Shown: positions 1-37,468 of the stretch, in pieces | Position numbering within the stretch: the first letter of the stretch is position 1 | Layout of the letters: each line of letters starts with the position of its first letter | Assembly (NCBI GenBank): GCA_033648345.1 | Contig: GCA_033648345.1_4121.1 | DNA: 64,000 nucleotides | DNA from: a phage | Reading direction: 5' to 3' (one strand) | Made by a program: the position numbers and the translations under genes | The notes under the pieces: generated by a model | What the model was told of the DNA's origin: nothing | Seen by the model: only the letters and a program-made list of their open reading frames with translations | Database searches by the model: none

Positions 1-405
1 TCCGTCTTTCATTAATATAAATGCTGTATAACCACATAACATTTTTTTAATTTGGGTAACATCTATACCAGTGAAATACACAGCCCAGTCAGTATATCCT
101 TGTTGGAAAGTATTAGAATTCGTGAATGCATATGTTGAACCTGAACCATATATTTTATCACCTTTAATAACAACGGAAAACGATCCTAACCATAAGTCAT
201 CAACTTCAGTTGTGATTTGTTGAACTGCTCCTAACGATACAAACTGTGTACTTAAACCCGCATTATAGTTTGAATCTTCACCGTGTGCATATACAGTGCC
301 ATCTTGCATTAGAAACATTTCAAGAGTGTAACTAACAACACTTTTCTTTATATTATTAACTTCGATTATATTCCCATAATCAAACATTCTAACAAAAGGT
401 AACAT
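1..405 (-). CDS. RCC1-repeat (beta-propeller-like) protein, paralog 1, C-terminus outside window
   Basis: Open frame to window edge; N-terminus MLPFVRMFDYGN shared with the two downstream paralogs; AAGGAGG SD 5 nt upstream. Confidence 0.6.
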   Translation of the reverse strand, partial: MLPFVRMFDYGNIIEVNNIKKSVVSYTLEMFLMQDGTVYAHGEDSNYNAGLSTQFVSLGAVQQITTEVDDLWLGSFSVVIKGDKIYGSGSTYAFTNSNTFQQGYTDWAVYFTGIDVTQIKKMLCGYTAFILMKDG

Positions 406-477
406 AATTCCCTCCTTTATTCATTATACTTTATTTAATACAAATAAGAATTCCTGTATCGAGTACTGGCATTCAAT

Positions 478-1626
478 TTATTGTAAAAAGGACATATCTA
501 CTTCTGTATAACTAAGAATGTTTTGACCAGCAATTCCACCCATTACTACTATTGCATACCCACAATAATATAATTTCCCAGTGTCCGTAAGTATAAGTGA
601 ACCAGAAGGTGTTCTTACCAAATTACACGAACTATTAAAAGAAGTATACGAAGGAGTATAGGAGTACTGATTAATATTATTACCAACACCTAATTGACCA
701 CCCCTATTCGAACCAGATGCATAAAGTACTTCATCTGCTTTGACAATATGTGATGCCATGTTAGCAACACATGCATATACACCATATACCCCTGTACTCA
801 ATAATGTAGGAGTCTTGTATTGAATATCAGTACTAGTAGATGTTCCACCTGTGCCAAATTCATTACCATATTGTGCTCCGTACTGCTTCCCACATGCGTA
901 CAAATTATTATCCGATTTGATAAAAAATGTACTCTGATAACTTACATCAAAATCTATAACATCCGAAGAAATCATCGTTACCCCAGTAATCGAAGTTTGA
1001 TTACCAGTACCCAACTGGTAGTAATAGTTAAAACCACAACCCCATAAAGTATTATCTTCTCGCAAATAAATGTTACCAACAGCCTTTTTAACAGATGTTA
1101 TAGTACTGACCTTCTTGAATGTATTAAATGAATCAATGTTAGTACCATCTCCAAAGGAGGATATGTTCGATGCGTTATTAGCACCACAACAATATAATGT
1201 CCCATCCTTCAGTACTAAATTTACCTTCATATCATTAAAACTGCTCATGTACTCAATATCAGATACACTAATACCACCTGATGTTATCCACGTAGTACAG
1301 TCCGTCCATAACGTCTTCCTATCAGTTACCCCAGTAAATGCCTTCGTGTTACCAGTGATAAACACTTTACCAGTACCCTTTTCTTCATACAATTGACAAT
1401 CACTACTGTTATCTTCCAATAAAACCCTCTGTACATTCTCTGCACAAAGAATAAATTTACTCGATGCTACACCTGTTCCAGTACCCCAATTCGTCGCAGA
1501 AGATGCATACAACTTATGTGTTAGTGTATCATGCAAATACATAGAACCACTAGAATATATTTTAAAACGCCCTTCTTTCTCAGGTATAATATTCCCATAA
1601 TCAAACATTCTAACAAAAGGTAACAT
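478..1626 (-). CDS. RCC1-repeat protein, paralog 2
   Basis: Track ORF 478..1644 trimmed to internal Met (MNKGGN is the SD AAGGAGG); repeated G-x-x-GQLG-x-G motifs typical of RCC1 blades. Confidence 0.65.
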   Translation of the reverse strand: MLPFVRMFDYGNIIPEKEGRFKIYSSGSMYLHDTLTHKLYASSATNWGTGTGVASSKFILCAENVQRVLLEDNSSDCQLYEEKGTGKVFITGNTKAFTGVTDRKTLWTDCTTWITSGGISVSDIEYMSSFNDMKVNLVLKDGTLYCCGANNASNISSFGDGTNIDSFNTFKKVSTITSVKKAVGNIYLREDNTLWGCGFNYYYQLGTGNQTSITGVTMISSDVIDFDVSYQSTFFIKSDNNLYACGKQYGAQYGNEFGTGGTSTSTDIQYKTPTLLSTGVYGVYACVANMASHIVKADEVLYASGSNRGGQLGVGNNINQYSYTPSYTSFNSSCNLVRTPSGSLILTDTGKLYYCGYAIVVMGGIAGQNILSYTEVDMSFLQ

Positions 1627-1654
1627 ATTCCCTCCCTTATTCATTATACTATAT

Positions 1655-1690
1655 TTAATACAAATAAGAAAGCCAGTACAGAGTACTGGC
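1655..1690 (-). terminator. Rho-independent terminator (minus strand)
   Basis: Perfect hairpin GCCAGTAC-nnn-GTACTGGC at 1672-1690 followed on the minus strand by UUUCUUAUUUG, just downstream of the 1698..2864 stop. Confidence 0.5.
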
Positions 1691-1697
1691 CTATCAA

Positions 1698-2864
1698 TTA
1701 CGAAAAACGTGGATCATCAAGAACAAACACTGTACTACTTGGACCACCTTGTGTGGTGACAGCACTAGTACTGTAAAGAAAGTTACCATCCGTCATATAA
1801 GTTCTACGATTCGTACAAATAACTCTTACTTTATTCATATCGATATCAGGATTAGGTAATGGACATGAAGTATACACTGATACATCAGTACTTGTTCCTA
1901 TCCCCAGCGTACCTTCATTTGTGGTTGAACCGCTATTCAACCCACTAGCATATATACCACTGCTTGTAATAACAAAAGTGGCGTAGAATGGAGAACCTTC
2001 ACCTATATTTAATTTAGTTCCAGGTGGTTGTCTTGCCGCAGCAACCGCACCATATGCTTTCCCACCAGATGTGGCAAGATTACCAAGAGCACCATACTGT
2101 TGTTGTCCACCATTATACACTGTGTTAGTGCCATCACTGTTAGTGTGGATACCAATAGAATTATAGTTACTGTTGCTATATACTAACGCGGTATTCGAAG
2201 TAACTGTATTTCGTGTATATACTTTATATTGTTGGGTAAAATTACCACTAGTGGACGTACCCTGTACAGTTCCAGTGTAGTATATATATCCGTCTGTACC
2301 AATGAATGAGTGCATAACACTACCTGCAAAAATTTTTTCGGGAGTAACACCTGACGGTATTGTTGATTGTACAAATCTACCCACTACATTTGTTGTTGTA
2401 TTATTTCCCAATTGACCGGAGTCACCATAACCACTTGACCATATGGTATTGTTCTCAAGAAGAACACTAATTGATAATCTTGATAAAGCTATTTCTTTAA
2501 CATCACTTTCTAATGTATCAAAAAATGAAGTACAATTTGTCCAAGTGTTCACTACGCTAGAACTAACACCAATTTGTTTATTATCACCAGAACTATAATA
2601 ATTCCCATCATATGTTTGTATAAGTATAACAGAACTACCAACCCATACTTTATCAACTGAACCAAACGTTCTTGTCCATGTGGTAACTATATCCCCGCTA
2701 TTATTACCCAATCCAAAGCAACCACTACTATCTACACCTCGTACATATAAATCTCCTGAAGTCATCAGAACTGCACAGAATGATTGTGCACCTTTAACAT
2801 CTTTAATTGGCTCTGGTTCAGGTGCAACATTCCCATAATCAAACATTCTAACAAAAGGTAACAT
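1698..2864 (-). CDS. RCC1-repeat protein, paralog 3
   Basis: Track ORF 1698..2882 trimmed to Met after SD; SGYGDSGQLGNN and GGQQQYGALGN RCC1-like blades. Confidence 0.65.
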   Translation of the reverse strand: MLPFVRMFDYGNVAPEPEPIKDVKGAQSFCAVLMTSGDLYVRGVDSSGCFGLGNNSGDIVTTWTRTFGSVDKVWVGSSVILIQTYDGNYYSSGDNKQIGVSSSVVNTWTNCTSFFDTLESDVKEIALSRLSISVLLENNTIWSSGYGDSGQLGNNTTTNVVGRFVQSTIPSGVTPEKIFAGSVMHSFIGTDGYIYYTGTVQGTSTSGNFTQQYKVYTRNTVTSNTALVYSNSNYNSIGIHTNSDGTNTVYNGGQQQYGALGNLATSGGKAYGAVAAARQPPGTKLNIGEGSPFYATFVITSSGIYASGLNSGSTTNEGTLGIGTSTDVSVYTSCPLPNPDIDMNKVRVICTNRRTYMTDGNFLYSTSAVTTQGGPSSTVFVLDDPRFS

Positions 2865-2912
2865 ATTTCCTCCTTTATTCATTATATCATATTTACCCCA
2901 TAAACAAAACCC

Positions 2913-2941
2913 TTGACAACCTTCCAGTACTGATGTACTAT
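2913..2941 (+). promoter_or_regulatory. sigma70-type promoter driving the FamA array
   Basis: TTGACA-17-TACTAT in the divergent intergenic region. Confidence 0.5.
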
Positions 2942-2966
2942 AGAAGGAATATAAGGAGAACTACAC

Positions 2967-3194
2967 ATGACAAATACTCTTAAGTACTACCTCAATACTC
3001 TAAATGAACTAGAGTACGCGAAGTTTCTCGCGGATAGTTCGTGGCTAATTGAGCTAAAAACACATAACAGTACTGGATGTAACCTTATGCTGAACAATGC
3101 ACTTGATACCCTTGTAGTGAGTATTTTACACAGCACCATCTGCGGGGATAGCAATAAACAATTATCAAAAATCTTAGTACTGGTAGCTCTATGA
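2967..3194 (+). CDS. FamA-like small protein (divergent first member)
   Basis: 75 aa ORF with SD AAGGAG; LKYYLNTL N-terminus. Confidence 0.5.
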   Translation: MTNTLKYYLNTLNELEYAKFLADSSWLIELKTHNSTGCNLMLNNALDTLVVSILHSTICGDSNKQLSKILVLVAL

Positions 3195-3403
3195 ACACTA
3201 TGAACATTGAACAGTACTACATTGATGCACTACCAACAAAAGGTCTACGAGAAAGCCTACTGTATACACAAAATAATTATATAAACCTCAAACATTGTCC
3301 TAAACTCTTGAACTCGTACAGGAATAATAAAATAAGAAATGCTGTACAAGGGGTAGAAAGTATGCAATACTATTACATCCTAACCCTTTTAATCGAGCAC
3401 TAA
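3191..3403 (+). CDS. FamA small paralog
   Basis: ATGA overlap with upstream gene; EQYYID N-term motif. Confidence 0.6.
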   Translation: MNTMNIEQYYIDALPTKGLRESLLYTQNNYINLKHCPKLLNSYRNNKIRNAVQGVESMQYYYILTLLIEH

Positions 3404-3404
3404 T

Positions 3405-3590
3405 ATGTATAAAGAATTCTACTGTAGTAAGCTGCACAAACAATACAGAGATTCATTTCCCAATGAACCTATGGATATGAATAGTCCCTTTTATAAATTT
3501 GACTTCAGACTGGAGACACGTTATGCAATAGAACATCAATTTCCTGAAACTAAGTACTTATCTATCATGAACCTCATCTTTAAGTTCTAA
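3405..3590 (+). CDS. FamA small paralog
   Basis: MYKEFY N-term, LIFKF C-term; TAATATG junction. Confidence 0.6.
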   Translation: MYKEFYCSKLHKQYRDSFPNEPMDMNSPFYKFDFRLETRYAIEHQFPETKYLSIMNLIFKF

Positions 3591-5801: not shown

Positions 5802-5990
5802 ATGAATAACCACAAAGAATACTACACACAATTTCTCCCCAGCATTTTTGAACACTACGCCAGATATAAAGTCCCCCTGGATAACGATTTGGCAGTACTG
5901 GGATTCAATAACTGCATAGAACGAAGTATAGAAAATAGTAGTACTTATGACCAATTATATAACATCATACTACTCATATACAGGTACTAA
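5802..5990 (+). CDS. FamA small paralog
   Basis: MNNHKEYY...FNNCIERS...ILLIYRY. Confidence 0.65.
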   Translation: MNNHKEYYTQFLPSIFEHYARYKVPLDNDLAVLGFNNCIERSIENSSTYDQLYNIILLIYRY

Positions 5991-5991
5991 T

Positions 5992-6180
5992 ATGCATAAA
6001 GAATACTACACAAAATATTTCCCAATGTACCTCAGTACTAATCTATTAGATAAACCTCGCGGTATCAATGCTCAAAACGATAAAGTGTACTTTACTATGT
6101 GCACTAAAGCATGTATACTAGATTTTGATAGCTATCATCGAGTACTGTATCATACCCTGTACCTAGCTTTCGTGTACTAA
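5992..6180 (+). CDS. FamA small paralog
   Basis: Start moved to MHKEYY; C-term YLAFVY. Confidence 0.6.
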   Translation: MHKEYYTKYFPMYLSTNLLDKPRGINAQNDKVYFTMCTKACILDFDSYHRVLYHTLYLAFVY

Positions 6181-6190
6181 AGAGGCCAAT

Positions 6191-6397
6191 ATGAACGAAC
6201 AGAAAGAATTCTACACCAAATACCTCAGTGCATCAGAACAAATGTTTCTAAGGAGTGTATCACCTTTACGTTTAGATACACCACACGCCAGAGATTGTTT
6301 TAATAATTGTATACGTATTACTCTAGAAGCTTTAGAAAACAATAACAAAAATATTCAGTACTCAGGCGTAATGGGACTAATATTCTTCTATGAATAA
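6191..6397 (+). CDS. FamA small paralog
   Basis: MNEQKEFY...FNNCIRIT...LIFFYE. Confidence 0.65.
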   Translation: MNEQKEFYTKYLSASEQMFLRSVSPLRLDTPHARDCFNNCIRITLEALENNNKNIQYSGVMGLIFFYE

Positions 6398-6578
6398 CAA
6401 AGAATTCTACATAAACCATCTGGAACTAAACTCCCAAATGCTTATACCACTAAACCCAATAGATATCAAGGATAAGAAAAATACCAAACAATTCCACTAC
6501 CACACACTATGTGCTATCAACCCTGATTATAATACATATAAACTGTACTACATTCTCGCCCTAATATATAGGTACTGA
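6390..6578 (+). CDS. FamA small paralog
   Basis: MNNKEFY...LALIYRY. Confidence 0.65.
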   Translation: MNNKEFYINHLELNSQMLIPLNPIDIKDKKNTKQFHYHTLCAINPDYNTYKLYYILALIYRY

Positions 6579-6579
6579 T

Positions 6580-6765
6580 ATGCATAGAGAATACTATATA
6601 CAATTTGTTAAAGGGAACTACAAACACGCCGTCCCCGTAAACCCCTTAAATTCTAATGACCCAAGTACTATATTCTTGTTCCATGACGCAATACGTACAG
6701 TACTCAATACTAAAGATGAACAGGTGCAGTACGTATTCTTACTATTACTTATATACAGACACTAA
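6580..6765 (+). CDS. FamA small paralog
   Basis: MHREYY...LLLIYRH. Confidence 0.65.
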   Translation: MHREYYIQFVKGNYKHAVPVNPLNSNDPSTIFLFHDAIRTVLNTKDEQVQYVFLLLLIYRH

Positions 6766-6782
6766 AGCACTAAGGTACTAAC

Positions 6783-6986
6783 ATGTATAAAGACTTCTAC
6801 ATAAATCATCTTAGTCCCGCAAAACAATCATTCTATAAAGCAAAACCAATGAAAATGAAATTACAAAATAATTTCACAAAAATATGCTATAATAACTGTA
6901 TACGTAGTACTATACAAGCACTGCAAGAAAATGACAACAATAAACTATACTCCAACATAATGGCACTCCTATATATCTATGAATAA
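6783..6986 (+). CDS. FamA small paralog
   Basis: MYKDFY...YNNCIRST...LLYIYE. Confidence 0.65.
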   Translation: MYKDFYINHLSPAKQSFYKAKPMKMKLQNNFTKICYNNCIRSTIQALQENDNNKLYSNIMALLYIYE

Positions 6987-7188
6987 TGAACATAAAGAAT
7001 TCTACTCCAAACACCTCAGCCCCTCAGAACAAATGTTTCTAAGGACTACAGCACCTTTAAATACTGATACATATTTCGGCAGATTATGCTACAATAATTG
7101 TATTCAAATGACTTTAAACGCAAACGACAATAATAACAGTACTAACATGTACTCAGGCATCATAGGTATACTATTCCTATATGAATAA
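6979..7188 (+). CDS. FamA small paralog
   Basis: MNNEHKEFY...YNNCIQMT...LFLYE. Confidence 0.65.
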   Translation: MNNEHKEFYSKHLSPSEQMFLRTTAPLNTDTYFGRLCYNNCIQMTLNANDNNNSTNMYSGIIGILFLYE

Positions 7189-7369
7189 TTACAAAGACTT
7201 CTATTTGAATACACTACCTACTGTACTTTCTCTAAGTGCTCAATGTAAAATCCCGCTGGATAATCCTTACGCCAGATATAACTATTCCATAACTGTTAAT
7301 CGATGTATAGAGAATCATTGCAGTACTAACCAGTACTATAACATAATCCTACTTATATTCAGGTACTAA
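7181..7369 (+). CDS. FamA small paralog
   Basis: MNNYKDFY...ILLIFRY. Confidence 0.65.
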   Translation: MNNYKDFYLNTLPTVLSLSAQCKIPLDNPYARYNYSITVNRCIENHCSTNQYYNIILLIFRY

Positions 7370-7370
7370 T

Positions 7371-7550
7371 ATGAACGAACACAAAGACTTCTATATAAGA
7401 AAACTAACATTCGTCCCCGTAAAAATATATAAAGAATGCGACCCAAGATTATACCTATGGCACTTCAATGAGTGCATAAAAGATTCTATATACCCTAAGA
7501 ACTATAAAGAACAATTGTGCTCAGTACTAACACTAGTACTATCATATTAA
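7371..7550 (+). CDS. FamA small paralog (59 aa, absent from ORF track)
   Basis: MNEHKDFYIRKL... by manual translation. Confidence 0.5.
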   Translation: MNEHKDFYIRKLTFVPVKIYKECDPRLYLWHFNECIKDSIYPKNYKEQLCSVLTLVLSY

Positions 7551-7563
7551 TAGAGATAATACT

Positions 7564-7755
7564 ATGCATAAAGACTATAAAGAGTACTATATAAGTAAAC
7601 TCAAAGAGAATGAACAAGCATGGGTTAACAATTTAATCCCCCTGGCAATGACTCAATACGAATTTAATATGTGTACAAAGATTGTTTTAACTAGTAATGA
7701 TATCTCTAATACGTACTACTTCCTATTAAGAGTACTATATGGTACTTTGAAATAA
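7564..7755 (+). CDS. FamA small paralog
   Basis: MHKDYKEYYISKL... Confidence 0.6.
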   Translation: MHKDYKEYYISKLKENEQAWVNNLIPLAMTQYEFNMCTKIVLTSNDISNTYYFLLRVLYGTLK

Positions 7756-27977: not shown

Positions 27978-28032
27978 GTTTTACATAGAGCGGGGGAATA
28001 GTTCTCCCGCCAATAGTTTGGAGTTAAACATT

Positions 28033-28233
28033 ATGTCTATCGCTATCGCCCTGGTTGAAGTACTGAAAGAAGCTAAAGCCAACCAGATCGACGTAAAGAT
28101 CCAGGAACTACAAAACGGCTTAATCGGCTGTACTTGTACCGCTGGTGGAGCGGCAGACTATCGAGAACACGAATCACTCGAATCACTGGTTCGGTATCTT
28201 ACCATGATCGTTGATGATTGGAGAATCATCTAA
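28033..28233 (+). CDS. Hypothetical protein (66 aa)
   Basis: Start moved to MSIAIALVEV after hairpin GCGGGGGAATAGTTCTCCCGC and SD GGAG. Confidence 0.6.
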   Translation: MSIAIALVEVLKEAKANQIDVKIQELQNGLIGCTCTAGGAADYREHESLESLVRYLTMIVDDWRII

Positions 28234-28247
28234 CAAAAAAAGAATAA

Positions 28248-28284
28248 AAAAGGGATTGACTCCGGTCAGTCCCTTTGCTATTAT
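28248..28284 (+). terminator. Terminator hairpin with embedded promoter-like TTGACT
   Basis: Same element as 22519. Confidence 0.7.
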
Positions 28285-28480
28285 ATACGCATAGACAAAA
28301 ACTAGCCCACAGGGTGCATAGGTGTATCTAAAATATATAGTTAATAACGGTGAGTAACTATCTGCTGGTGGAGTGAAAACTATTAATAAAAAAAACTATT
28401 GACAAAGTATATCAGTACTGCAATAATGTATCTCGTAGGGCGGCAATGGTGCGACGGCCCACAAAGTTAGGAGATTCAAA

Positions 28481-28813
28481 ATGAGTACTTCAATCGCTAT
28501 CGTTAAAGCTTTCATCCGTACCAATGTTTCATCTGTATTCATCGACGGTCTGGATCGGGAAGTAGAATACTCAATCATTATCGCACAGACTGCAAACGGT
28601 GCTCGGTATATCCTTAATAATAGTGAAGCAAATCACTACTACTTCACTAAAGCTACTGGCTTTAAACGCATCGATGCTGACGTAGTATACACTAAGATGA
28701 ATAAGCTGGTAGACAAGATTAACGCGAAAGGTACTATCGATTTACAGTACTGGACCGAAACCGATCCAGAATATGGATCTCACCGCTACCTGAATCCAGG
28801 TATTAAAATGTAA
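28481..28813 (+). CDS. Hypothetical protein (110 aa)
   Basis: ORF with SD AGGAGA. Confidence 0.65.
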   Translation: MSTSIAIVKAFIRTNVSSVFIDGLDREVEYSIIIAQTANGARYILNNSEANHYYFTKATGFKRIDADVVYTKMNKLVDKINAKGTIDLQYWTETDPEYGSHRYLNPGIKM

Positions 28814-28820
28814 AAAGTAC

Positions 28821-28848
28821 TTGCATAGTACTTAGATTCATGTATAAT
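28821..28848 (+). promoter_or_regulatory. Class-I early promoter
   Basis: TTGCAT-16-TATAAT. Confidence 0.6.
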
Positions 28849-28902
28849 GTTTTACATAGAGAGGGGGAAATGGTTCTCCCTCCTAAATTAAGGAGTTTTA
28901 TC

Positions 28903-29304
28903 ATGACCTTCTCAATCACTTCCTTCGCTGACGTTTTAGTACTGGCTCGGACTTTTGGTAAAGCTGGCCTTGAGCACGCTGTAAGTAATGGTCATATGCA
29001 CCCTGAATATTGCCGCATCATTGGAAGCTGTAAACGTTGGGCTGTGTCCCGTAACATTGAGATTGAAAACTTCAATGACGGTAACAACGAATATACAGTT
29101 GATGCAGTATTCGAAGTCGTTGATCTCGGCGGTATCTATAACACTAACCTGAATGATGTGCGTATCGTTCGCACGGGGTTCGGTGCTTATGATGTATCTA
29201 TCCGTGAAGCTATGGACAAGGGATACATTAGCAAGGACCAGTTAGCTTACATCATGCAGCAAACTAAGGAACGTAACGAAGCACGCACTATCTTAGGACT
29301 GTAA
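28903..29304 (+). CDS. Hypothetical protein (133 aa)
   Basis: Start moved to MTFSITSF after hairpin and SD AAGGAG. Confidence 0.65.
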   Translation: MTFSITSFADVLVLARTFGKAGLEHAVSNGHMHPEYCRIIGSCKRWAVSRNIEIENFNDGNNEYTVDAVFEVVDLGGIYNTNLNDVRIVRTGFGAYDVSIREAMDKGYISKDQLAYIMQQTKERNEARTILGL

Positions 29305-29372
29305 GCGTTACACATCACCAAACATCATAGGCCGCCTTGTAGCGGCCTTAACTATATCAGGAGGGCATACAT

Positions 29373-29582
29373 ATGTTCTATACAGTATACAGCGTTCTAG
29401 GTACTATTGCAGGCGTACATGATAACGTCAATGATGCTATGCGTACAGTACTGCAACAGGTTCCACTAAAGCCTAAGACCATTAAGCAGATGACAGCACG
29501 ACTAACCAGGGCGACGGCTGGCGTGGAAGTATGGCAGGACTATGGGGATACACAGATAATCGTAAGCGTAACGAAGGATTAA
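29373..29582 (+). CDS. Hypothetical protein (69 aa)
   Basis: ORF with SD AGGAGGG. Confidence 0.6.
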   Translation: MFYTVYSVLGTIAGVHDNVNDAMRTVLQQVPLKPKTIKQMTARLTRATAGVEVWQDYGDTQIIVSVTKD

Positions 29583-29865
29583 TGCGTAAAAGGATTTAGT
29601 ACTGAATCATAAAAAAGTCAAGGCATTTTTAAACTTCAGCGTTAAAAAAATGCATAGGTAATCCCTTGACTTTTATGAATAAAAAGGGATTGGACTATGG
29701 CAAAATGCGTAGGGGGCTTAACTGCGGGTAACCTTAGCGACTTCGAAAAAAGGAGTGATAGGGGCTTGACTTTTTATATAATTCTGATAATATATAGTCT
29801 ATATTATATTTCATTCATATTTTATATGTTAGTTACATTAACTCAACATTAGAGGTCACAGAACT

Positions 29866-30231
29866 ATGAATCCATCATCTAATAAATGTGGTACTTCCTT
29901 TAATGTAGAATGGTTATTTTTTAAACCCACATCTACTATAAAATCATTCATTGCTGATATCACTGAAGCACCTGACACCCTTGTATCAGTTGTTAACAAC
30001 AATAACGAAATGGTATTTTCTATTGATGAAAATCAATATGCAGATATCTATTCATTGAGTCGTATAAAAAACTTAGTTGTACTGTCCGAGAAAGCGTTCG
30101 CAAAAGAAGCGAAGAAATGGGATTTTAAACTTCCTATTGAATTGGTACGTGAAATACAAAAATTGGGATGTACTACTATTGAGAATTGTAAAGACTCACG
30201 TGCTACTGGGAATATTTCATTTGAAGTATAA
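29866..30231 (+). CDS. Hypothetical AT-rich protein (121 aa)
   Basis: Track ORF; SD AGAGG; first gene of the AT-rich right-hand zone. Confidence 0.55.
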   Translation: MNPSSNKCGTSFNVEWLFFKPTSTIKSFIADITEAPDTLVSVVNNNNEMVFSIDENQYADIYSLSRIKNLVVLSEKAFAKEAKKWDFKLPIELVREIQKLGCTTIENCKDSRATGNISFEV

Positions 30232-30317
30232 TGCATTTATATGAACAAAACATCTTGACATCATGCCTCACATGGGGTATGATGTTTTTTCACATATGAA
30301 CCTATGGATTTTATCCT

Positions 30318-30515
30318 ATGCGTATTTTAACTAAAGAACAGCACCACGAAAGACTTATCAATAACATGGCTATGATAATGTATAAGTCCCATGACCGTGG
30401 TATTGCATATAAGCGTGAATTGGTTATGGCACTATTCATTGGAACTAACTTTCAGGAAAGGTATGTCAAGGATTGGATTTGGTATTTAATTGAAGATATA
30501 ACGAGTAAACTATGA
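30318..30515 (+). CDS. FamB small paralog
   Basis: C-terminal IGTNFQERYVKDWIWYLIEDI. Confidence 0.65.
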   Translation: MRILTKEQHHERLINNMAMIMYKSHDRGIAYKRELVMALFIGTNFQERYVKDWIWYLIEDITSKL

Positions 30516-30712
30516 AAATGCGTATTTTAAATAAAGAAGAATATCAATCACTGTTACGTAAAAACTACGTAAAGATTTACAACACAGACACACACGTAGA
30601 ACGAATGGAGTTATACCTTTTGATTACATTGGGAACAAACTATCAGGGTAGATGGGTGTGGCAATATATGGATACATTGAAAAATAAAATATTGTCCACG
30701 AGGAAACAATGA
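30512..30712 (+). CDS. FamB small paralog
   Basis: LGTNYQGRWV; ATGA overlap. Confidence 0.65.
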   Translation: MKMRILNKEEYQSLLRKNYVKIYNTDTHVERMELYLLITLGTNYQGRWVWQYMDTLKNKILSTRKQ

Positions 30713-30918
30713 AAACTATAACACGAACCCAATCATTAGGTCTTATCTTGAAATACATGGACTTAATGTTGGATATCAGCAAAGACCTTCCTAAAACTGA
30801 AATCCAAGTTGCAAGAGCAGAGATCCGCATGTTAGCTGTACTGAACACAAACCATCAGGAAGAGTATGTTGACGATTGGATTCGATTTTTAATAGAAGAT
30901 ATTAAGAGTAAACTATGA
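30709..30918 (+). CDS. FamB small paralog
   Basis: LNTNHQEEYVDDWIRFLIEDI. Confidence 0.65.
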   Translation: MKTITRTQSLGLILKYMDLMLDISKDLPKTEIQVARAEIRMLAVLNTNHQEEYVDDWIRFLIEDIKSKL

Positions 30919-31130
30919 ATATCATTACAAACTCAAATCAATATACCGAACGCGTCGCTGCCAGACAACTTGAAATTCTCATAGTATATGAAGAGACTGA
31001 TGATTTGAACTTAGCATTAGTATTGGAAAATGATATACTATTGGGTGCATTCCTCGGCACAGATTATCAGGAGCACTTCTTGAATGAGTATATAATTGCA
31101 CTCCAGAAATACATTAAGAGCAAACTATGA
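30915..31130 (+). CDS. FamB small paralog
   Basis: LGTDYQEHFL. Confidence 0.65.
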   Translation: MNIITNSNQYTERVAARQLEILIVYEETDDLNLALVLENDILLGAFLGTDYQEHFLNEYIIALQKYIKSKL

Positions 31131-31345
31131 AACATTTAAGTAACTCCGAGAAGAATAAAATTATCATTGCTGCAATAAACAAATATTTTACACTTCCTCA
31201 CACAGAAGGTTTATGTGTAAGGGAACACAGGATAAACACCACCGATATACGCATGATGGCTGTACTGGGGACGAACTTTCAGGAAGAGTATGTTGTTGCA
31301 CACATAGTTGCCCTCACTGATCTAATAAGGGACAAATGCAAATGA
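31127..31345 (+). CDS. FamB small paralog
   Basis: LGTNFQEEYV. Confidence 0.65.
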   Translation: MKHLSNSEKNKIIIAAINKYFTLPHTEGLCVREHRINTTDIRMMAVLGTNFQEEYVVAHIVALTDLIRDKCK

Positions 31346-31560
31346 AAGACATAAACACTCAAGAATATCTTAAACGATTAGAACAAGGGAAGAACTTTAG
31401 ACTTCAAGTTTACGATGATGAATCACTAACATCCAATGAAAAGTATGTTATACTAACAGACTCAACATTAATACCATTTGTAGGAACAAACTATCAGGAG
31501 GTTATGGTAGACAACCACATCACGGCCTTAAAATGTCATGTCAGGGATTTAGGTAAATGA
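31336..31560 (+). CDS. FamB small paralog
   Basis: VGTNYQEVMV. Confidence 0.65.
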   Translation: MQMKDINTQEYLKRLEQGKNFRLQVYDDESLTSNEKYVILTDSTLIPFVGTNYQEVMVDNHITALKCHVRDLGK

Positions 31561-31814
31561 GACGCTTAACACAAGATGAATATGAAACTATAGTTCGTAA
31601 ACTAACCCCCGTCGCCAGTATAGTCTACGATGACCCCAGCCTTACATGGAACCAAATGCGAGCTAAAGTTAATGAGCTATGGTTGCTGTACTTTATGGGG
31701 ACTCAATATCAAGATAAGTTTTGCACAGAATATGTCGAACAATTAATGAATGTTATACAGGATAAACTAGATGATTATTGGCTCACAAAACATGAAGACT
31801 TTATCAGGAGTTGA
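31557..31814 (+). CDS. FamB small paralog
   Basis: MGTQYQDKFC. Confidence 0.65.
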   Translation: MRRLTQDEYETIVRKLTPVASIVYDDPSLTWNQMRAKVNELWLLYFMGTQYQDKFCTEYVEQLMNVIQDKLDDYWLTKHEDFIRS

Positions 31815-32043
31815 GTATCAAACTGCCCTATTCTCTTTAATCCATACCCTTAGAAAAAACAATGCCTTACATGGTGCACCTGAAGTGGATGTTATCAACG
31901 GTGAACTTTATCTTATGAAATTCATTGGAACAAACTATCAAGATCTGTTCATTCAACGATACTTGGCAGCATTAAGAAACCAAATCCAATATAAAACCCA
32001 GAGAGCCAAAAAAGAATGGAATAAACAATGCGACAAAGAATGA
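31792..32043 (+). CDS. FamB small paralog
   Basis: IGTNYQDLFI; start uncertain (track 31771). Confidence 0.55.
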   Translation: MKTLSGVEYQTALFSLIHTLRKNNALHGAPEVDVINGELYLMKFIGTNYQDLFIQRYLAALRNQIQYKTQRAKKEWNKQCDKE

Positions 32044-32279
32044 ACCACAAAATGTATTGTAAACTATTGCAGACACTGGCACAGAAACACTATGACACGG
32101 TATCTGAAATATTACCCTATGATATCATGCGTTTACTTCACTGTGAGGCCGAGATGCTTGTACTGATGACAGGCACTGATAAAAAAGCAATTGCCAAATC
32201 AATAGATATGTTCATCGAAGCACAATGTCAACACATTAGAACCGAGATATGGAGACGAGAGAATGATAACACTAAATGA
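32028..32279 (+). CDS. FamB-like small paralog (divergent)
   Basis: TGTDKKAIAKSIDMFIE variant of the motif. Confidence 0.5.
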   Translation: MRQRMNHKMYCKLLQTLAQKHYDTVSEILPYDIMRLLHCEAEMLVLMTGTDKKAIAKSIDMFIEAQCQHIRTEIWRRENDNTK

Positions 32280-32478
32280 GTTTCAGTATCATTGGAGGTT
32301 ACAAGCTATAAGAAGGAAAGTTGTTAGTATTTCTTTAGACAAGTCTATTGCACAAGAGGACAAATGTGTTATAATAGCTGAAATGAAGTTGGGTGTATTC
32401 GTAGGAACAAACTATCAAAACATCTACACTGACGTATTGTTAAGTGCCTTACGTAACAAGGTGATATCAAAAGAATGA
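32263..32478 (+). CDS. FamB small paralog
   Basis: VGTNYQNIYT. Confidence 0.65.
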   Translation: MITLNEFQYHWRLQAIRRKVVSISLDKSIAQEDKCVIIAEMKLGVFVGTNYQNIYTDVLLSALRNKVISKE

Positions 32479-32693
32479 GAAAATTAATAGGTTACGAATA
32501 TGTTAAGCTTCTGAAAACATGTGCCAACAGAAGAGTAAAGATTCAATCTGATAAGAGCATCCCTGCCAACCTAAAACATGCAATGGTAGCTGAACTCTAT
32601 GCAGGGGCACTCATAGGAACAAACTATCAACAAATGTATATAGACATGTGGGTTGATGCATTAGTCAAGGTGATCCAAAGTAAATGCAAATGA
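32475..32693 (+). CDS. FamB small paralog
   Basis: IGTNYQQMYI. Confidence 0.65.
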   Translation: MRKLIGYEYVKLLKTCANRRVKIQSDKSIPANLKHAMVAELYAGALIGTNYQQMYIDMWVDALVKVIQSKCK

Positions 32694-32932
32694 TTAATTT
32701 AAGTAAATCTGAATATAAAGAACGCCAAGCAAAAATCTTACCTAAACTTAATGAAATCCATTTCGGTGAAGTAAACAAACACGAAAATAAGATGATTATG
32801 AAGCGTGAGACAAAGCTATGTGCATTCTTAGGAACTAACTATCAGGAGTATTATGTAGAGGAATATATAATTACACTTAAGAAATACATTGGGAGTAAAC
32901 TAAGTAAATGTACGAGAAATGCAAATGATTAA
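32684..32932 (+). CDS. FamB small paralog
   Basis: LGTNYQEYYV; MQMINLSK N-terminus. Confidence 0.65.
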   Translation: MQMINLSKSEYKERQAKILPKLNEIHFGEVNKHENKMIMKRETKLCAFLGTNYQEYYVEEYIITLKKYIGSKLSKCTRNAND

Positions 32933-33137
32933 TTTAAGTAAAGATGAATATTATGATCGTCTTGCAAAAACTTATCCAGCACGTAACGCCGTTTATAATA
33001 GTAACATTATTGAACGCTCAAAGAAGTTGATTGTAGTAAATGAGATTAAGATGCTTTCAGTCTTAGGAACAAACTATCAAGAGAATGCTGTACTGTTGTT
33101 AATTGATGCCCTCAAGAGAGAGATACAAAGTAAATGA
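32919..33137 (+). CDS. FamB small paralog
   Basis: LGTNYQENAV; MQMINLSK N-terminus. Confidence 0.65.
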   Translation: MQMINLSKDEYYDRLAKTYPARNAVYNSNIIERSKKLIVVNEIKMLSVLGTNYQENAVLLLIDALKREIQSK

Positions 33138-33358
33138 TTAATTTATCTTTCCATGAATATCAAAAACGTTTAAATGCATCCAGAGATATAAGGATTCAAA
33201 TATTCAATAACAAAAGATTGAAGCCTGATATCAGAAAAATCAAAATTATAGAAGCAGAGTTATGCAACTTTCTAGGGACCAACTATCAGGCAGGTAAGGT
33301 AAAAAACTATCTTAGAGAACTAATGAATAGTATTGAAAATAAATGCGAGGGTAATTAA
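33134..33358 (+). CDS. FamB small paralog
   Basis: LGTNYQAGKV. Confidence 0.65.
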   Translation: MINLSFHEYQKRLNASRDIRIQIFNNKRLKPDIRKIKIIEAELCNFLGTNYQAGKVKNYLRELMNSIENKCEGN

Positions 33359-33359
33359 C

Positions 33360-33623
33360 ATGAAAATGATTAATTTAAGTAAAGATGAATATACCGAGCG
33401 TATGACAAAAATTACGCACAAACGTAATACAATCTATCACAACCCAGAAATTCAACACAGTAAGAAGATGATTATGATGCGTGAGTTAAAGATGGGTGTA
33501 TTCTTAGGAACAAACTATCAAGATACAGAAGTAAATCGCTTAATCGCGGAGTTACTACTGGAAATCAAAGGTAAGCTGTACTTTTATCAAATGACCCGTC
33601 CACTAAGGTGTACTGATCGATGA
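33360..33623 (+). CDS. FamB small paralog
   Basis: LGTNYQDTEV; start moved to MKMINLSK. Confidence 0.6.
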   Translation: MKMINLSKDEYTERMTKITHKRNTIYHNPEIQHSKKMIMMRELKMGVFLGTNYQDTEVNRLIAELLLEIKGKLYFYQMTRPLRCTDR

Positions 33624-33862
33624 ATATTGTGAATAACATCAGAATAGCAGAAAGATTTGATAGAATTGGGGAAGCTCTGAGAAGATACGATAAAGAATAT
33701 GGTCATTTAAGCTTTTCTATAGAAAAGAGATATGAACTTGAAGCAGAGTTTAAAATGCAGTTCCTCTTAGGTACACAGTATCAAAACCAATATGTAGAAA
33801 AATGGATTTCACTTTTAATCCAGACAATTTACGTAAGGAACATTAAATGCAAAATGAAATGA
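33620..33862 (+). CDS. FamB small paralog
   Basis: LGTQYQNQYV. Confidence 0.65.
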   Translation: MNIVNNIRIAERFDRIGEALRRYDKEYGHLSFSIEKRYELEAEFKMQFLLGTQYQNQYVEKWISLLIQTIYVRNIKCKMK

Positions 33863-34107
33863 TATACTTAACACATGATGAGTTAACAGAAAGACTAGAT
33901 AAATCCAAAAAACTTACAAATAAACTTCCTCACAACACAAACCAAACCCCAGCGGAAAGGAGTGCAGAAGTTTTATTCCAAACATTACCATACCTTCTTG
34001 GAACTGATAGGCAAGAGTATCACATTGAACGTATAATTAAATATCTCAAAATTACTATTAAGGAAAAAGTAAATGCAAATGCAAATGAAATACTTAACAG
34101 ACGATGA
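33847..34107 (+). CDS. FamB small paralog
   Basis: LGTDRQEYHI. Confidence 0.65.
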   Translation: MQNEMIYLTHDELTERLDKSKKLTNKLPHNTNQTPAERSAEVLFQTLPYLLGTDRQEYHIERIIKYLKITIKEKVNANANEILNRR

Positions 34108-34330
34108 GTTAAAAGAACGATTAATTAAATCCAGAAAACTTACAAATCAACTTCCAATCGACACAAACAAGTCACATGCCGAAAGGAGTGCAGAAGTTTT
34201 ATACATTCAACTCCTGTACTTTCTTGGAACTGACAGACAAGAGTATTACATTGAAAGTATGCTTCGATATCTTAAATTCTCTATAAAGGAAAAGATACAT
34301 GCTCAAGAATTTAAAAATCCTAACAGTTAA
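34073..34330 (+). CDS. FamB small paralog
   Basis: LGTDRQEYYI; near-duplicate of 33847..34107. Confidence 0.65.
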   Translation: MQMQMKYLTDDELKERLIKSRKLTNQLPIDTNKSHAERSAEVLYIQLLYFLGTDRQEYYIESMLRYLKFSIKEKIHAQEFKNPNS

Positions 34331-34556
34331 TGAATATCATAAGATTGTAATGAAAACTAATAGTGCAATTTCTAAAAAATCAAACCCAAAGTACATACTG
34401 GAACACACATTCGAAGAACGCCAATTAGCTCTAGTTGAAGCAAAACTTCTTGCACTCCTAGGAACAAACTATCAGGAAGAATACATTAGAAAACTAATAT
34501 ACCTTTTAACTAAACACATCAGGAAAAGAAAAAAGCATGAAGCACTTGACAGATGA
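34299..34556 (+). CDS. FamB small paralog
   Basis: LGTNYQEEYI. Confidence 0.65.
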   Translation: MLKNLKILTVNEYHKIVMKTNSAISKKSNPKYILEHTFEERQLALVEAKLLALLGTNYQEEYIRKLIYLLTKHIRKRKKHEALDR

Positions 34557-36038: not shown

Positions 36039-36039
36039 T

Positions 36040-36616: not shown

Positions 36617-36619
36617 ACA

Positions 36620-37459: not shown

Positions 37460-37468
37460 GAGAAGAAT

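What the first reader, a model, noticed from the sequence alone, without database searches (positions are those of the whole stretch)
1..2864. Three tandem RCC1-repeat paralogs on the opposite strand with conserved leaders
These are the only minus-strand genes in the window. They share the N-terminus MLPFVRMFDYGN, an upstream AAGGAGG SD and a conserved ~40-bp upstream segment with a TATAAT element, and have G-x-x-GQLG-x-G blades typical of RCC1 beta-propellers. The divergent orientation and Gly/Ser/Thr-rich repeats would fit structural or host-recognition proteins that vary by duplication.
Basis: partly seen in the sequence, partly recalled or inferred. Interest (0 to 1): 0.5.

Follow-up and report, generated by a model that had tools for sequence, protein, structure and literature searches.

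The report
Leader-tagged RCC1 propeller cassettes, jumbo phage
These are the first three genes of a long tandem array in a giant E. coli phage; each encodes a seven-bladed RCC1-like propeller protein behind the same 12-residue N-terminal tag, relatives of these proteins are found in phage particles, and the misleading database name "chromosome condensation regulator" probably hides a set of interchangeable binding modules carried by the virion.

Summary
Window 1-2895 (minus strand) holds two complete genes and one gene cut by the window edge, from an Asteriusvirus-type (PBECO4/121Q/phAPEC6) jumbo coliphage. All three start with the same 36 nt (MLPFVRMFDYGN) and follow a conserved TAAATA..TATAAT..GGAGG module. 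AlphaFold models (pLDDT 88-91) match seven-bladed RCC1-like propellers, and the leader lies outside the fold. In relatives the array has 8 to at least 13 cassettes. I found 22 cassette types that share about 23% identity, and closely related phages differ by whole cassettes. Published virion proteomics detected eight phAPEC6 array members, including gp549, which is 89.8% identical to gene 2. It also detected GAP32 gp001 and five CBB proteins. The new point is that the same leader heads Kelch, Laminin-G and unknown-fold proteins in phages J, CBB and GAP32, so it behaves as a portable tag. My best reading is that the genes are late-expressed virion proteins, docked through the leader, whose bodies are ligand-binding modules. 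Their location on the virion, their ligands and the tag's partner are untested. The genes themselves are already annotated. In passing, AGTACT is about 15-fold over-represented in the window.

The parts
1698..2864 (-). g1, cassette type A: 388-aa protein made of a 12-aa leader, a Pro-rich linker (VAPEPEP) and a seven-bladed RCC1-like propeller
   Evidence: ORF and translation. PF25390 E=1.4e-16 and PHROG 4219 1.3e-66. AF2 pLDDT 87.5, and Foldseek matches UVR8 with TM 0.76-0.78. 99.5% identical to P0001, which is carried on contigs of up to 348 kb.
2829..2864 (-). Leader of g1 (MLPFVRMFDYGN), 36 nt identical in all three genes
   Evidence: Residues 1-10 have low pLDDT and lie outside the propeller.
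2865..2895 (-). Promoter-like element plus SD of g1: TAAATATGATATAAT GAATAAAGGAGGAAAT
   Evidence: The GTAAATA element resembles the (T)ATAAATA motif upstream of phAPEC6 baseplate genes.
1670..1692 (-). Intrinsic terminator after g1 (GGCCAGTAC-TCT-GTACTGGCC-like stem followed by a T-run)
   Evidence: Terminator scan. Fold gives -14.6 kcal/mol, z -4.65. Conserved at most cassette junctions in relatives.
1627..1669 (-). Junction module of g2: T-run, TATTAAATATAGTATAAT, GAATAAGGGAGGGAAT
478..1626 (-). g2, cassette type B: 382-aa protein made of the leader (1591-1626), a linker and a seven-bladed RCC1-like propeller
   Evidence: Pfam RCC1_2 43.5 bits and RCC1 35.3 bits, both above cutoff. AF2 pLDDT 90.8 with residues 1-16 below 50. 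Foldseek hits UVR8, HERC2 and RCC1. 89.8% identical to phAPEC6 gp549, which was detected in virions. dN/dS 0.12-0.19 against orthologues.
452..470 (-). Degenerate copy of the junction hairpin after g2
   Evidence: -5.3 kcal/mol, z -0.62, so it is probably not an efficient terminator in this phage.
406..450 (-). Junction module of g3: TTCTTATTTGTATTAAATAAAGTATAATGAATAAAGGAGGGAATT
1..405 (-). g3, cassette type C, N-terminal 134 aa only (leader 370-405); the gene and the rest of the array continue beyond the window start
   Evidence: PHROG 4219 3.5e-20. 100% identical over 134 aa to the 375-aa cassettes of phage J and of L006.
2913..2941 (+). Context: sigma70-like promoter (TTGACA-17-TACTAT) in the divergent intergenic region, pointing into the plus-strand block of short genes
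   Evidence: This is a consensus match only.

Best explanation
The three genes are the promoter-proximal end of a tandem cassette array of an Asteriusvirus-type jumbo coliphage.

Each cassette is usually its own transcription unit. It consists of a hairpin terminator, a TAAATA/TATAAT promoter-like element, a strong SD, an invariant 12-residue N-terminal leader (MLPFxRMxxYGN), a short Pro-rich linker, and a globular body. Here the body is a seven-bladed RCC1-like beta-propeller.

Shown:
- The fold.
- The cassette anatomy.
- The leader lies outside the propeller.
- The leader is conserved at the protein level across several genera of Rak2-like jumbo phages.
- The leader heads unrelated bodies: RCC1, Kelch, Laminin-G/concanavalin-like, and unknown folds.
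- Orthologues and paralogues are present in purified virions of three phages.
- Closely related phages differ by whole cassettes, with breakpoints in the conserved junction module.

Inferred:
- The leader is an address or docking peptide that brings every cassette product to one shared site on the virion. The most likely site is the external 'hairy' head and tail decorations described for phAPEC6, 121Q and CBB.
- The bodies are non-enzymatic binding modules for glycans or proteins, giving the particle a repertoire of adhesion specificities.
- The genes are expressed late.
- The DNA-identical junctions act as homology patches that let cassettes be gained, lost and swapped.

The database name 'regulator of chromosome condensation / DNA condensation protein' describes only the fold family, not the function.
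For: - Phage identity and array. Arrays hold 8 to at least 13 cassettes at the same genome position, divergent from the block of short genes.
- Fold.
- Leader versus body: in 59 cassettes the only invariant columns are M1 L2 P3 F4 R6 Y10 N12, while bodies of different types share a mean of 22.7% identity. The leader has low pLDDT.
- Leader on other folds: the Kelch cassette of phage J, annotated 'virion structural protein'; all seven CBB_548-554 proteins (Kelch, Laminin_G_3, phrog_6011 'virion structural protein'); and GAP32_001 and 002.
- Leader in other genera: tandem arrays in Yersinia phage fHe-Yen9-03 and Salmonella phage Munch.
- Protein-level selection: across genera the motif is kept while codons vary (CCT/CCA/CCG, TTT/TTC, AGA/AGG).
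- Specificity: a leader-only profile finds just 15 proteins among 1.84 billion representatives, and every match lies at the N-terminus (14 start at residue 1, one at residue 6).
- Virion presence: phAPEC6 MS lists 8 array members, including gp549, which is 89.8% identical to g2 (PMC7247149). CBB MS lists 548, 549, 551, 552 and 553, and GAP32 gp001 was found by MS (PMC5259590).
- Late-type signal: phAPEC6 baseplate genes carry (T)ATAAATA 17-45 nt upstream of their ATG, and the phage encodes a gp55-like late sigma factor. The cassettes carry TTAAATA or GTAAATA ending at about -27.
- Cassette shuffling: orders are A-B-C (window), D-B-C-E.. (J), A-C-U-P.. (L006) and A-N-H-O-K.. (L005, L008). The A>C junction of L006 switches donor at the terminator hairpin. 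Leader alleles (VRMFDY versus A/GRMVKY) differ between orthologous cassettes, and chimeras (ARMFKY) exist. TTA-CCT-TTT and AGA are uniform in 41/41 junctions, although body codon usage is 47%, 36%, 76% and 36% for those codons.
- Binding-module reading: the nearest cellular relatives are secreted or surface proteins carrying T9SS sorting, Ig-like or discoidin domains. RCC1-like domains occur inside annotated phage tail-fibre proteins. dN/dS of 0.12-0.19 shows that each type is a maintained function.
Against: - No experiment places these proteins on the outside of the particle.
- MS peptide counts are low (1-5 peptides, 3-17% coverage). This fits minor components but also contamination.
- A 40-kDa propeller cannot itself be a roughly 120-nm hair, so a separate fibre protein would be needed, and none has been identified.
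- GAP32 has leader-bearing proteins but no reported hairs.
- The docking partner is unknown, and no co-folding test could be run.
- Late expression rests on motif resemblance only. TATAAT could equally be a host sigma70 -10 element.
- No ligand is known for any phage RCC1-like domain.
- The virion evidence comes from relatives, not from this phage.
Confidence: 0.55

Rival explanations
1. Packaged internal proteins. The leader would be a capsid-targeting sequence like that of the phage T4 internal proteins IPI-III and Alt. The cassette products would be loaded into the prohead, possibly forming or accompanying the inner body, and then ejected into the host, where the diverse propellers bind host or defence proteins.
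For: - The conserved N-terminal peptide of about 12 aa on otherwise unrelated, variable, virion-associated proteins is exactly the T4 IP pattern (established T4 knowledge).
- Conserved promoter and leader DNA flanking hypervariable cassettes, with cassette gain and loss between close relatives.
- Low-copy MS detection.
- phAPEC6 has an inner body whose components are unidentified.
Against: - No conserved protease cleavage motif follows the leader. Residues 13-20 are variable x-A-P-x-P linkers, and an I/L-x-E motif is present in only some cassettes.
- The bodies are Kelch, RCC1 and Laminin-G modules, which are typical of extracellular adhesion and of phage fibres.
- CBB and phAPEC6, the phages with large leader-bearing sets, are the ones described as 'hairy' (PMC5259590, PMC7247149).
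Confidence: 0.2
2. The database reading taken literally: DNA-condensation or inner-body proteins that organise the packaged 350-kb genome. The phAPEC6 authors suggested this.
For: - The annotation, and the speculation in PMC7247149.
- Virion association.
- Eukaryotic RCC1 binds nucleosomes, as shown by PDB hits 3mvd and 8ux1.
Against: - g1, g2 and g3 are acidic (pI 4.9, 5.3, 4.6; net charge -5 to -6). The median pI across the 22 types is 6.25.
- Eukaryotic RCC1 contacts histones and Ran, and neither exists here.
- The same leader heads Kelch and Laminin-G lectin-like proteins.
- CBB lacks RCC1 homologues yet packages a similar genome.
- Cassette content varies between near-identical phages, which is unexpected for a core packaging function.
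Confidence: 0.07
3. The leader has no protein-level function. Its conservation would reflect only gene conversion between tandem copies, or selection on the translation-initiation region of the mRNA. The proteins would act independently, possibly inside the infected cell, and their MS detection would be carry-over.
For: - Nucleotide-level uniformity of codons 1-4 and of the SD region within Asteriusvirus exceeds what codon bias predicts.
- Chimeric leader alleles show that recombination is ongoing.
Against: - Across genera the amino-acid motif is kept while synonymous sites vary.
- The motif persists in cassettes that lack the promoter and terminator module and abut the preceding gene.
- The motif is retained on four or more unrelated body folds.
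- Leader-bearing proteins were recovered from virions in three independent proteomic studies.
Confidence: 0.1

Closest known systems
RCC1-like gene arrays of Asteriusvirus phages (phAPEC6 gp549-551 and gp001-010; 121Q_234-248; PBECO4)
   Same: Same family, same genome position and same cassette structure. g2 is 89.8% identical to phAPEC6 gp549 and 90.6% identical to its phage J homologue. g3 is 100% identical (134 aa) to the J cassette. Eight phAPEC6 members were detected in virions (PMC7247149).
   Different: The cassette complement and order differ. This phage has A-B-C at the start, phAPEC6 has B-L-M, and J has D(Kelch)-B-C. The papers read or text-searched here (PMC7247149, PMC5259590, PMC13070987, PMC7824862, PMC11895373) treat these genes as 'DNA condensation' genes, and I found no mention in them of the shared leader or the cassette junctions.
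CBB_548-554 of Pectobacterium phage CBB, and GAP32_001/002 (Mimasvirus)
   Same: Same N-terminal MLPFxR..Y(G/A)N leader, same locus next to the genome end and divergent from the short-gene block, and five of the seven CBB proteins are MS-verified virion proteins.
   Different: The CBB bodies are Kelch propellers, Laminin_G_3 lectin-like domains and a phrog_6011 fold, not RCC1. The cassettes abut one another without the terminator and promoter module.
Phage T4 internal proteins (IPI, IPII, IPIII, Alt) with an N-terminal capsid-targeting sequence
   Same: A short conserved N-terminal peptide on otherwise unrelated, polymorphic, virion-carried proteins, with conserved 5' DNA that favours cassette exchange between related phages (my knowledge of the T4 literature; not tested here).
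   Different: No conserved cleavage site follows the leader. The bodies are large binding-type domains rather than small basic or acidic proteins or enzymes. Location inside the head has not been shown.
Multi-tailspike or multi-fibre phages with conserved N-terminal anchor modules (for example the K1-5, CBA120 and G7C types, and the K64-1/RaK2 depolymerase sets)
   Same: Several paralogous virion proteins share a conserved N-terminal attachment element and carry divergent C-terminal binding domains. The gene sets vary between relatives (my knowledge).
   Different: Those anchors are folded domains on trimeric beta-helical spikes with enzymatic activity. Here the tag is a 12-residue peptide on a predicted single-domain propeller with no catalytic signature.
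Eukaryotic RCC1, UVR8 and HERC RCC1-like domains
   Same: The seven-bladed propeller fold and the GxxGQLG blade motif.
   Different: Only 13-21% identity. There is no Ran, no histones and no UV-B tryptophan cluster context. The proteins are acidic and virion-associated, and carry an extra N-terminal leader.
Streptomyces umbrella-toxin particles (diversified beta-propeller lectins on a common scaffold; PMC13274773, abstract seen)
   Same: Conceptual only: one particle carries an overlapping set of diversified lectin modules as a bet-hedging way to recognise targets.
   Different: Unrelated proteins and a different assembly. No homology was tested or claimed.

Membership tests
RCC1-like domain (RLD) beta-propeller superfamily | Seven-bladed beta-propeller built from repeats of about 50-60 aa | tested here: met
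   AF2 models have pLDDT 90.8 (g2) and 87.5 (g1). The top Foldseek PDB hits are UVR8, HERC2 RLD, RPGR and RCC1, with TM 0.70-0.78 and E 1e-17 to 1e-21.
RCC1-like domain (RLD) beta-propeller superfamily | Sequence-profile match to RCC1 repeats, including the GxxGQLG blade motif | tested here: met
   g2 scores RCC1_2 43.5 bits and RCC1 35.3 bits, both above the gathering cutoffs. g1 single-repeat hits fall just below cutoff (20.0 and 17.1 bits), but PF25390 gives E=1.4e-16 and PHROG 4219 gives 1.3e-66. g3 (a fragment) matches PHROG 4219 at 3.5e-20.
Eukaryotic RCC1 proper (Ran-GEF, chromatin-bound 'regulator of chromosome condensation') | Guanine-nucleotide exchange on Ran and binding to nucleosomes | not testable with these tools
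   There is no Ran or histone in the host. Identity to RCC1 is 15-17%. The name should not be read as a function.
MLPF-leader virion proteins of Rak2-like jumbo phages (PHROG 4219 and neighbours) | N-terminus M[LI]PFxR..Y[GA]N starting at residue 1, followed by a short linker | tested here: met
   Identical in g1, g2 and g3. Invariant M1 L2 P3 F4 R6 Y10 N12 in 59 cassettes. Present in GAP32, fHe-Yen9-03, Munch and CBB. All 15 hits of the leader-only profile match at the N-terminus of the protein (14 start at residue 1, one at residue 6).
MLPF-leader virion proteins of Rak2-like jumbo phages (PHROG 4219 and neighbours) | Tandem same-strand array at the border of the block of short genes | tested here: met
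   Window layout. The same layout occurs in phage J, phAPEC6, UE-S1, L005-L008, fHe-Yen9-03, Munch and CBB.
MLPF-leader virion proteins of Rak2-like jumbo phages (PHROG 4219 and neighbours) | Presence in purified virions | not testable with these tools
   Reported for orthologues and paralogues by MS: phAPEC6 gp003, 005, 006, 007, 009, 010, 549 and 551 (PMC7247149); CBB_548, 549, 551, 552 and 553; and GAP32 gp001 (PMC5259590). No data exist for this phage.
T4-type internal proteins with a capsid-targeting sequence | Prohead-protease cleavage motif (I/L-x-E in T4) immediately after the conserved N-terminal peptide | tested here: not met
   Residues 13-20 are variable (VAPEPEP, IIPEKEG, IIEVNNI, EAPLPAP, TVVAPTG, IAPVPVV ...). 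An I/L-x-E motif is present in some cassettes and absent in most. The cleavage specificity of this phage's protease is unknown, so this evidence is weak.
T4-type internal proteins with a capsid-targeting sequence | Located inside the capsid and ejected with the DNA | not testable with these tools
   Needs N-terminal proteomics, bubblegram imaging or cryo-ET, or ejection assays.
Tailspikes or fibres with conserved N-terminal anchors | Trimeric beta-helical or fibrous body, often a depolymerase | tested here: not met
   The predicted body is a single closed propeller with no enzymatic Pfam hit. The oligomeric state was not modelled.
DNA-condensing or inner-body proteins | Positive charge or DNA-binding surface | tested here: not met
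   pI is 4.94 (g1), 5.28 (g2) and 4.61 (g3 fragment). The median pI over 22 cassette types is 6.25.

The most novel reading that the evidence does not exclude
The 12-residue MLPFxR..YGN peptide is a universal plug. It would let Rak2-like jumbo phages (Asteriusvirus, Mimasvirus, Eneladusvirus, Munch-like) mount any of a library of interchangeable lectin-like modules (RCC1, Kelch, Laminin-G, others) on one conserved socket of the virion. The DNA-identical junction modules would act as the recombination system that reshuffles the library. This would amount to a plug-and-play surface-display system, distinct from tail-fibre modularity, and it may explain the 'hairy' decorations.
Probability: 0.4. 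Interest if true: 0.65.

Novelty: new variant of a known kind. Interest (0 to 1): 0.45.

Why it matters
Dozens of jumbo-phage genomes carry 5-14 of these genes labelled 'regulator of chromosome condensation' or 'DNA condensation protein'. That label rests on fold similarity only, and charge, context and the shared leader all argue against it.

Recognising a short, portable N-terminal tag shared by RCC1, Kelch and Laminin-G proteins gives a concrete, testable handle on two open questions for this phage group. The first is what the unassigned head and tail 'hairs' and decorations of phAPEC6, 121Q and CBB are made of. The second is how the genomes expanded by tandem duplication.

If the tag is a docking peptide, it could also be used to display foreign proteins on these therapeutic-candidate phages.

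If instead it is a capsid-targeting signal, the array would be a large arsenal of ejected proteins. That would be equally worth knowing.

Tried and rejected
1. A DNA-pattern scan of IMG/VR for the leader returned only phage 121Q and one unrelated 59-kb contig (L010). The L010 match has no ORF behind it and is a chance hit.
2. The leader-only HMM against 1.84 billion representatives found only 15 proteins, all with the match at the N-terminus; six are already known array-family proteins (P0002, P0006, P0009, P0011, P0012, P0019), four of the nine new ones were read and are family-like, and the other five were not inspected. This profile was built from the VRMFDY allele and revealed no further body folds. 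Those came from targeted inspection of CBB, GAP32 and J instead.
3. A T4-like cleavage motif after the leader is not conserved.
4. Diversifying selection within a cassette type is rejected for type B, where dN/dS is 0.12-0.19. Diversity lies between cassette types and in cassette content, not in rapid point change.
5. A signal-peptide or lipoprotein reading of the leader is rejected on inspection. The leader is 12 aa with R6 and D9 and has no hydrophobic core.
6. Codon bias as the explanation for identical leader DNA is rejected. TTA, CCT, TTT and AGA are used at only 47%, 36%, 76% and 36% in the bodies.
7. Literature searches for the motif, for RCC1 plus jumbo phage, for beta-propeller decoration and for AGTACT found no description of the leader, of the cassette junctions, or of the AGTACT excess. 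The CBB supplement lists only CBB_549 and 553 as paralogues. The phAPEC6 supplement is not held as text.
8. The other minus-strand ORFs in the window were judged spurious. There are no tRNA genes.
9. The top and bottom faces of the propeller could not be mapped for variability because model coordinates are not exposed.


Full report
**What is in the window**

On the minus strand, reading right to left, the window holds three genes:
- g1 at 1698-2864 (388 aa)
- g2 at 478-1626 (382 aa)
- g3 at 1-405, which leaves the window after 134 codons

The mechanical ORF list starts g1 and g2 at an upstream in-frame ATG (MNKGGN...). That ATG sits on the Shine-Dalgarno sequence and is out of frame in g3. 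The real start is therefore the ATG of MLPFVRMFDYGN.

The 36 nt that encode this peptide are identical in all three genes, with 0 matches expected by chance. A 27-nt upstream module, TAAATA-N-RR-TATAAT-GAATAA-R-GGAGG, also occurs exactly three times, again with 0 expected.

A strong hairpin terminator follows g1 (-14.6 kcal/mol, z -4.65). The equivalent hairpin after g2 is degenerate.

The protein bodies share only 21-30% identity. No other credible minus-strand gene exists in the window. The only caveats are that the third gene is a fragment and that the SD of g2 reads AAGGGAGG.

**Where the window comes from**

The region matches Asteriusvirus jumbo coliphages (PBECO4, 121Q, phAPEC6, slurp01, G17, vB_Ec-M-J and others, 350-380 kb) at 85-90% DNA identity, with 7-14 matching places per genome.
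- g1 is 99.5% identical to a protein on contigs of up to 348 kb in E. coli assemblies.
- g2 is 89-95% identical to proteins from many relatives.
- g3 is 100% identical over its 134 aa to a 375-aa gene of phage J.

In these genomes the three genes are the start of a same-strand array of 8 to at least 13 paralogues. The array is always divergent from a long block of short genes.

**Fold**
- Pfam RCC1 and RCC1_2 repeats score above cutoff in g2.
- The RCC1-like-domain model PF25390 scores E=1e-16 to 1e-18 in g1 and g2.
- PHROG 4219 scores 1e-66, 1e-107 and 3.5e-20 for g1, g2 and g3.
- AlphaFold2 models built on 50- and 31-sequence alignments have mean pLDDT 90.8 (g2) and 87.5 (g1) and are all-beta.
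- Foldseek against the PDB returns seven-bladed RCC1-like propellers as the best hits: UVR8, HERC2, RPGR and RCC1 (TM 0.70-0.78, E down to 1e-21).
- Residues 1-16 of g2 and 1-10 of g1 have pLDDT of about 50. The leader is a flexible extension in front of the propeller, joined to it by a Pro-rich linker (VAPEPEP, IIPEKEG).

**Cassette anatomy and evolution**

I aligned 59 cassettes from the window, phage J, phAPEC6 and four contigs that carry g1. At 60% identity or more they fall into 22 types. Different types share a mean of 22.7% identity. Members of the same type share 95%.

The only invariant columns in the whole alignment are M1, L2, P3, F4, R6, Y10 and N12. Blade glycines are the next most conserved.

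Cassette order differs between near-identical phages:
- window: A-B-C
- phage J: D-B-C-E-F-G-H-I-J-K
- L006: A-C-U-P-Q-R-S-V
- L007: A-C-N-H-O-K-U-P-R
- L005: A-N-H-O-K-T-P-R-S

The alignment of 41 junctions shows a standard module. It consists of:
- a stop codon
- the hairpin ATGCCAGTACTT-GA-TACTGGC plus a T-run
- TATTAAATATAGTATAAT
- GAATAAAGGAGGG
- ATGTTACCTTTTG...

A minority of cassettes abut the preceding gene and lack the hairpin and promoter part, yet they keep the coding leader.

The A>C junction of L006 follows cassette A up to the hairpin. From the hairpin onward it follows the B>C junction of phage J. This places the cassette-B indel breakpoint inside the junction module.

Leader alleles are VRMFDYGN and [AG]RM[VIL]KYGN. 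They differ between orthologous cassettes of different phages (types B, K, O), and chimeras such as ARMFKYGN occur.

Codons 2-4 and 6 are TTA-CCT-TTT and AGA in all 41 junctions. In the bodies those codons are used at only 47%, 36%, 76% and 36%. Within the genus, the junction and leader are therefore homogenised at the DNA level. They act as homology patches for cassette gain, loss and exchange.

Within one cassette type, selection is purifying. dN/dS is 0.12-0.19 for type B.

**The leader is older and more general than the RCC1 array**

tblastn hits that align from residue 1 led me to other genera.
- GAP32 gp001 (Mimasvirus), five tandem genes of Yersinia phage fHe-Yen9-03 (Eneladusvirus) and five of Salmonella phage Munch all begin M[LI]PF.R..YGN.
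- In phage J, the first cassette is annotated 'virion structural protein'. It carries the same leader on a Kelch propeller (Pfam Kelch hits, E=1e-27).
- A 245-aa cassette (phrog_4474, no Pfam hit) also carries the leader.
- In Pectobacterium phage CBB, all seven adjacent genes CBB_548-554 start MLPF.R..Y(G/A)N. They comprise three Kelch proteins, two Laminin_G_3 proteins and two phrog_6011 'virion structural' proteins.

Across these genera the peptide is conserved while synonymous sites vary (CCT/CCA/CCG, TTT/TTC, AGA/AGG, TAT/TAC). This shows protein-level selection.

A profile built from the leader region alone finds 15 proteins among 1.84 billion representatives. Every match lies at the N-terminus of the protein (14 start at residue 1, one at residue 6).

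I found no mention of this shared N-terminus in the searchable literature. The CBB authors listed only CBB_549 and 553 as paralogues.

**Virion association**
- Table 1 of the phAPEC6 study lists gp003, 005, 006, 007, 009, 010, 549 and 551 among 62 virion proteins. All are array members. Each was supported by 1-5 unique peptides (PMC7247149).
- gp549 is the orthologue of g2 (89.8% identity).
- The CBB study lists CBB_548, 549, 551, 552 and 553 as MS-verified structural proteins. It also states that GAP32 gp001 was found by MS, and that 121Q has 13 copies (PMC5259590).
- phAPEC6, 121Q and CBB are the phages described as carrying unassigned 'hairy' fibres on head and tail.

**Expression**

Upstream of phAPEC6 baseplate and tail genes I find (T)ATAAATA 17-45 nt before the ATG. 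The CBB paper proposes the same T4-late-like motif. phAPEC6 also encodes a gp55-like late sigma factor. The cassettes carry TTAAATA or GTAAATA ending at about -27, followed by TATAAT. Late expression is therefore plausible but is only inferred.

**Function**

Against the literal 'DNA condensation' reading:
- The window proteins are acidic, with pI 4.6-5.3.
- Cassette content is variable between close relatives.
- The same tag heads lectin-like Kelch and Laminin-G bodies.
- CBB has no RCC1 homologue at all.

For a binding-module reading:
- The nearest cellular relatives are secreted or surface proteins with T9SS sorting, Ig-like or discoidin domains.
- RCC1-like domains occur inside annotated phage tail-fibre proteins.

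My best explanation (confidence 0.55) has three parts. The leader docks each cassette product to a common virion site, probably external. The bodies provide a repertoire of binding specificities. The junction modules drive cassette turnover.

The main rival (0.2) is a T4-internal-protein-like capsid-targeting signal on proteins that are packaged and ejected. The absence of a conserved cleavage motif and the nature of the bodies argue against it. Nothing here excludes it.

**Comparison with what is known, and novelty**

The genes themselves are already annotated in about 40 genomes, and their virion association is published. This window adds only another cassette combination. The following appear not to have been described:
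- the portable 12-residue tag shared across folds and genera
- the defined cassette junction
- the concerted evolution and recombination of the junction

As a kind of system, this is a variant of known modular virion proteins, in which a conserved N-terminal attachment or targeting element precedes a variable body. It is not a new category.

**Seen in passing**
- The hexamer AGTACT occurs 286 times in the window against about 19.5 expected. It is the only palindromic hexamer with such an excess. It occurs in all three reading frames and is enriched in intergenic DNA. The excess is shared by relatives, including a structural-gene region, and is absent from an unrelated control contig. This is unexplained, and I did not find it in the literature.
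- The plus-strand remainder of the window is a one-directional block of about 150 short ORFs. They include 15 paralogue families, one with 26 tandem members.

Noticed in passing
window 1-64000 (densest at 1-28000; sparse at 28000-36000 and 40000-44000); also L001, L002, L004, L009: The palindrome AGTACT (often CAGTACTG) occurs 286 times against about 19.5 expected. CAGTACT occurs 257 times against 7.9 in dinucleotide shuffles. No other palindromic hexamer exceeds 2.6-fold. Sites fall in all three reading frames about equally, and 34% of them lie in the 15% of DNA that is non-coding, so this is a DNA-level signal. The excess is 9-14-fold in the related loci L001, L002 and L004, and 6-fold in the phAPEC6 baseplate region. 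It is 0.9-fold in an unrelated viral contig. The array's terminator stems contain the motif. Its function is unknown, and I found no literature on it.
   Followed up: partly
window 2967-64000, + strand: A one-directional block of about 150 short ORFs with no tRNA genes. 67 of 165 ORFs fall into 15 paralogue families. The largest has 26 tandem members of 65-96 aa at 30318-36282. Others lie at 46245-54784 (6 members, 146-164 aa), 5802-7369 (5 members) and 36272-51663 (5 members). This is probably the early, host-takeover region.
   Followed up: partly
window 2913-2941 (+): A sigma70-like promoter (TTGACA-17-TACTAT) lies in the 100-bp divergent intergenic region between g1 and the first plus-strand gene (2967). 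This suggests host-RNAP early transcription rightward, opposite to late-type transcription leftward.
   Followed up: no
window 2865-2882 and 1627-1644: An in-frame ATG (MNKGGN) overlaps the SD and lengthens the mechanical ORFs of g1 and g2 by 6 codons. In g3 it is out of frame. Some database records start cassettes at upstream codons. Examples are phAPEC6 gp002, annotated as 434 aa against 400 aa for its orthologues, and L005:12430.
   Followed up: yes
window 452-470 (-): The junction hairpin after g2 is degenerate in this phage (-5.3 kcal/mol, z -0.62), whereas the same position in relatives has an intact GCCAGTACT..AGTACTGGC stem. g2 and g3 may be co-transcribed here.
   Followed up: partly
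L001 8092-8997 (phage vB_Ec-M-J); homologues in BF17, A4, Turkey5, EJP2, CBB: A 301-aa Kelch-repeat propeller with the identical MLPFVRMFDYGN leader occupies the first array slot in some Asteriusviruses, where this window has cassette A.
   Followed up: yes
L006 12438-13175; L007 17333-18070; L008 16135-16872: A 245-aa leader-bearing cassette (type U, phrog_4474) has no Pfam match and 42% G+S+T. Its body fold is unknown.
   Followed up: partly
L003 (phAPEC6) 1-1218, 2360-3506, 5992-7716: Unannotated gaps of 1.1-1.7 kb lie inside the phAPEC6 array. They are the size of a cassette and may hold unannotated or decayed cassettes.
   Followed up: no
L005-L008 and L003 leaders: Leader alleles show a positional gradient. 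Cassettes near the promoter-proximal end carry VRMFDYGN, and distal ones carry [AG]RM[VIL]KYGN. Chimeric forms (ARMFKYGN) occur in types O and S.
   Followed up: partly
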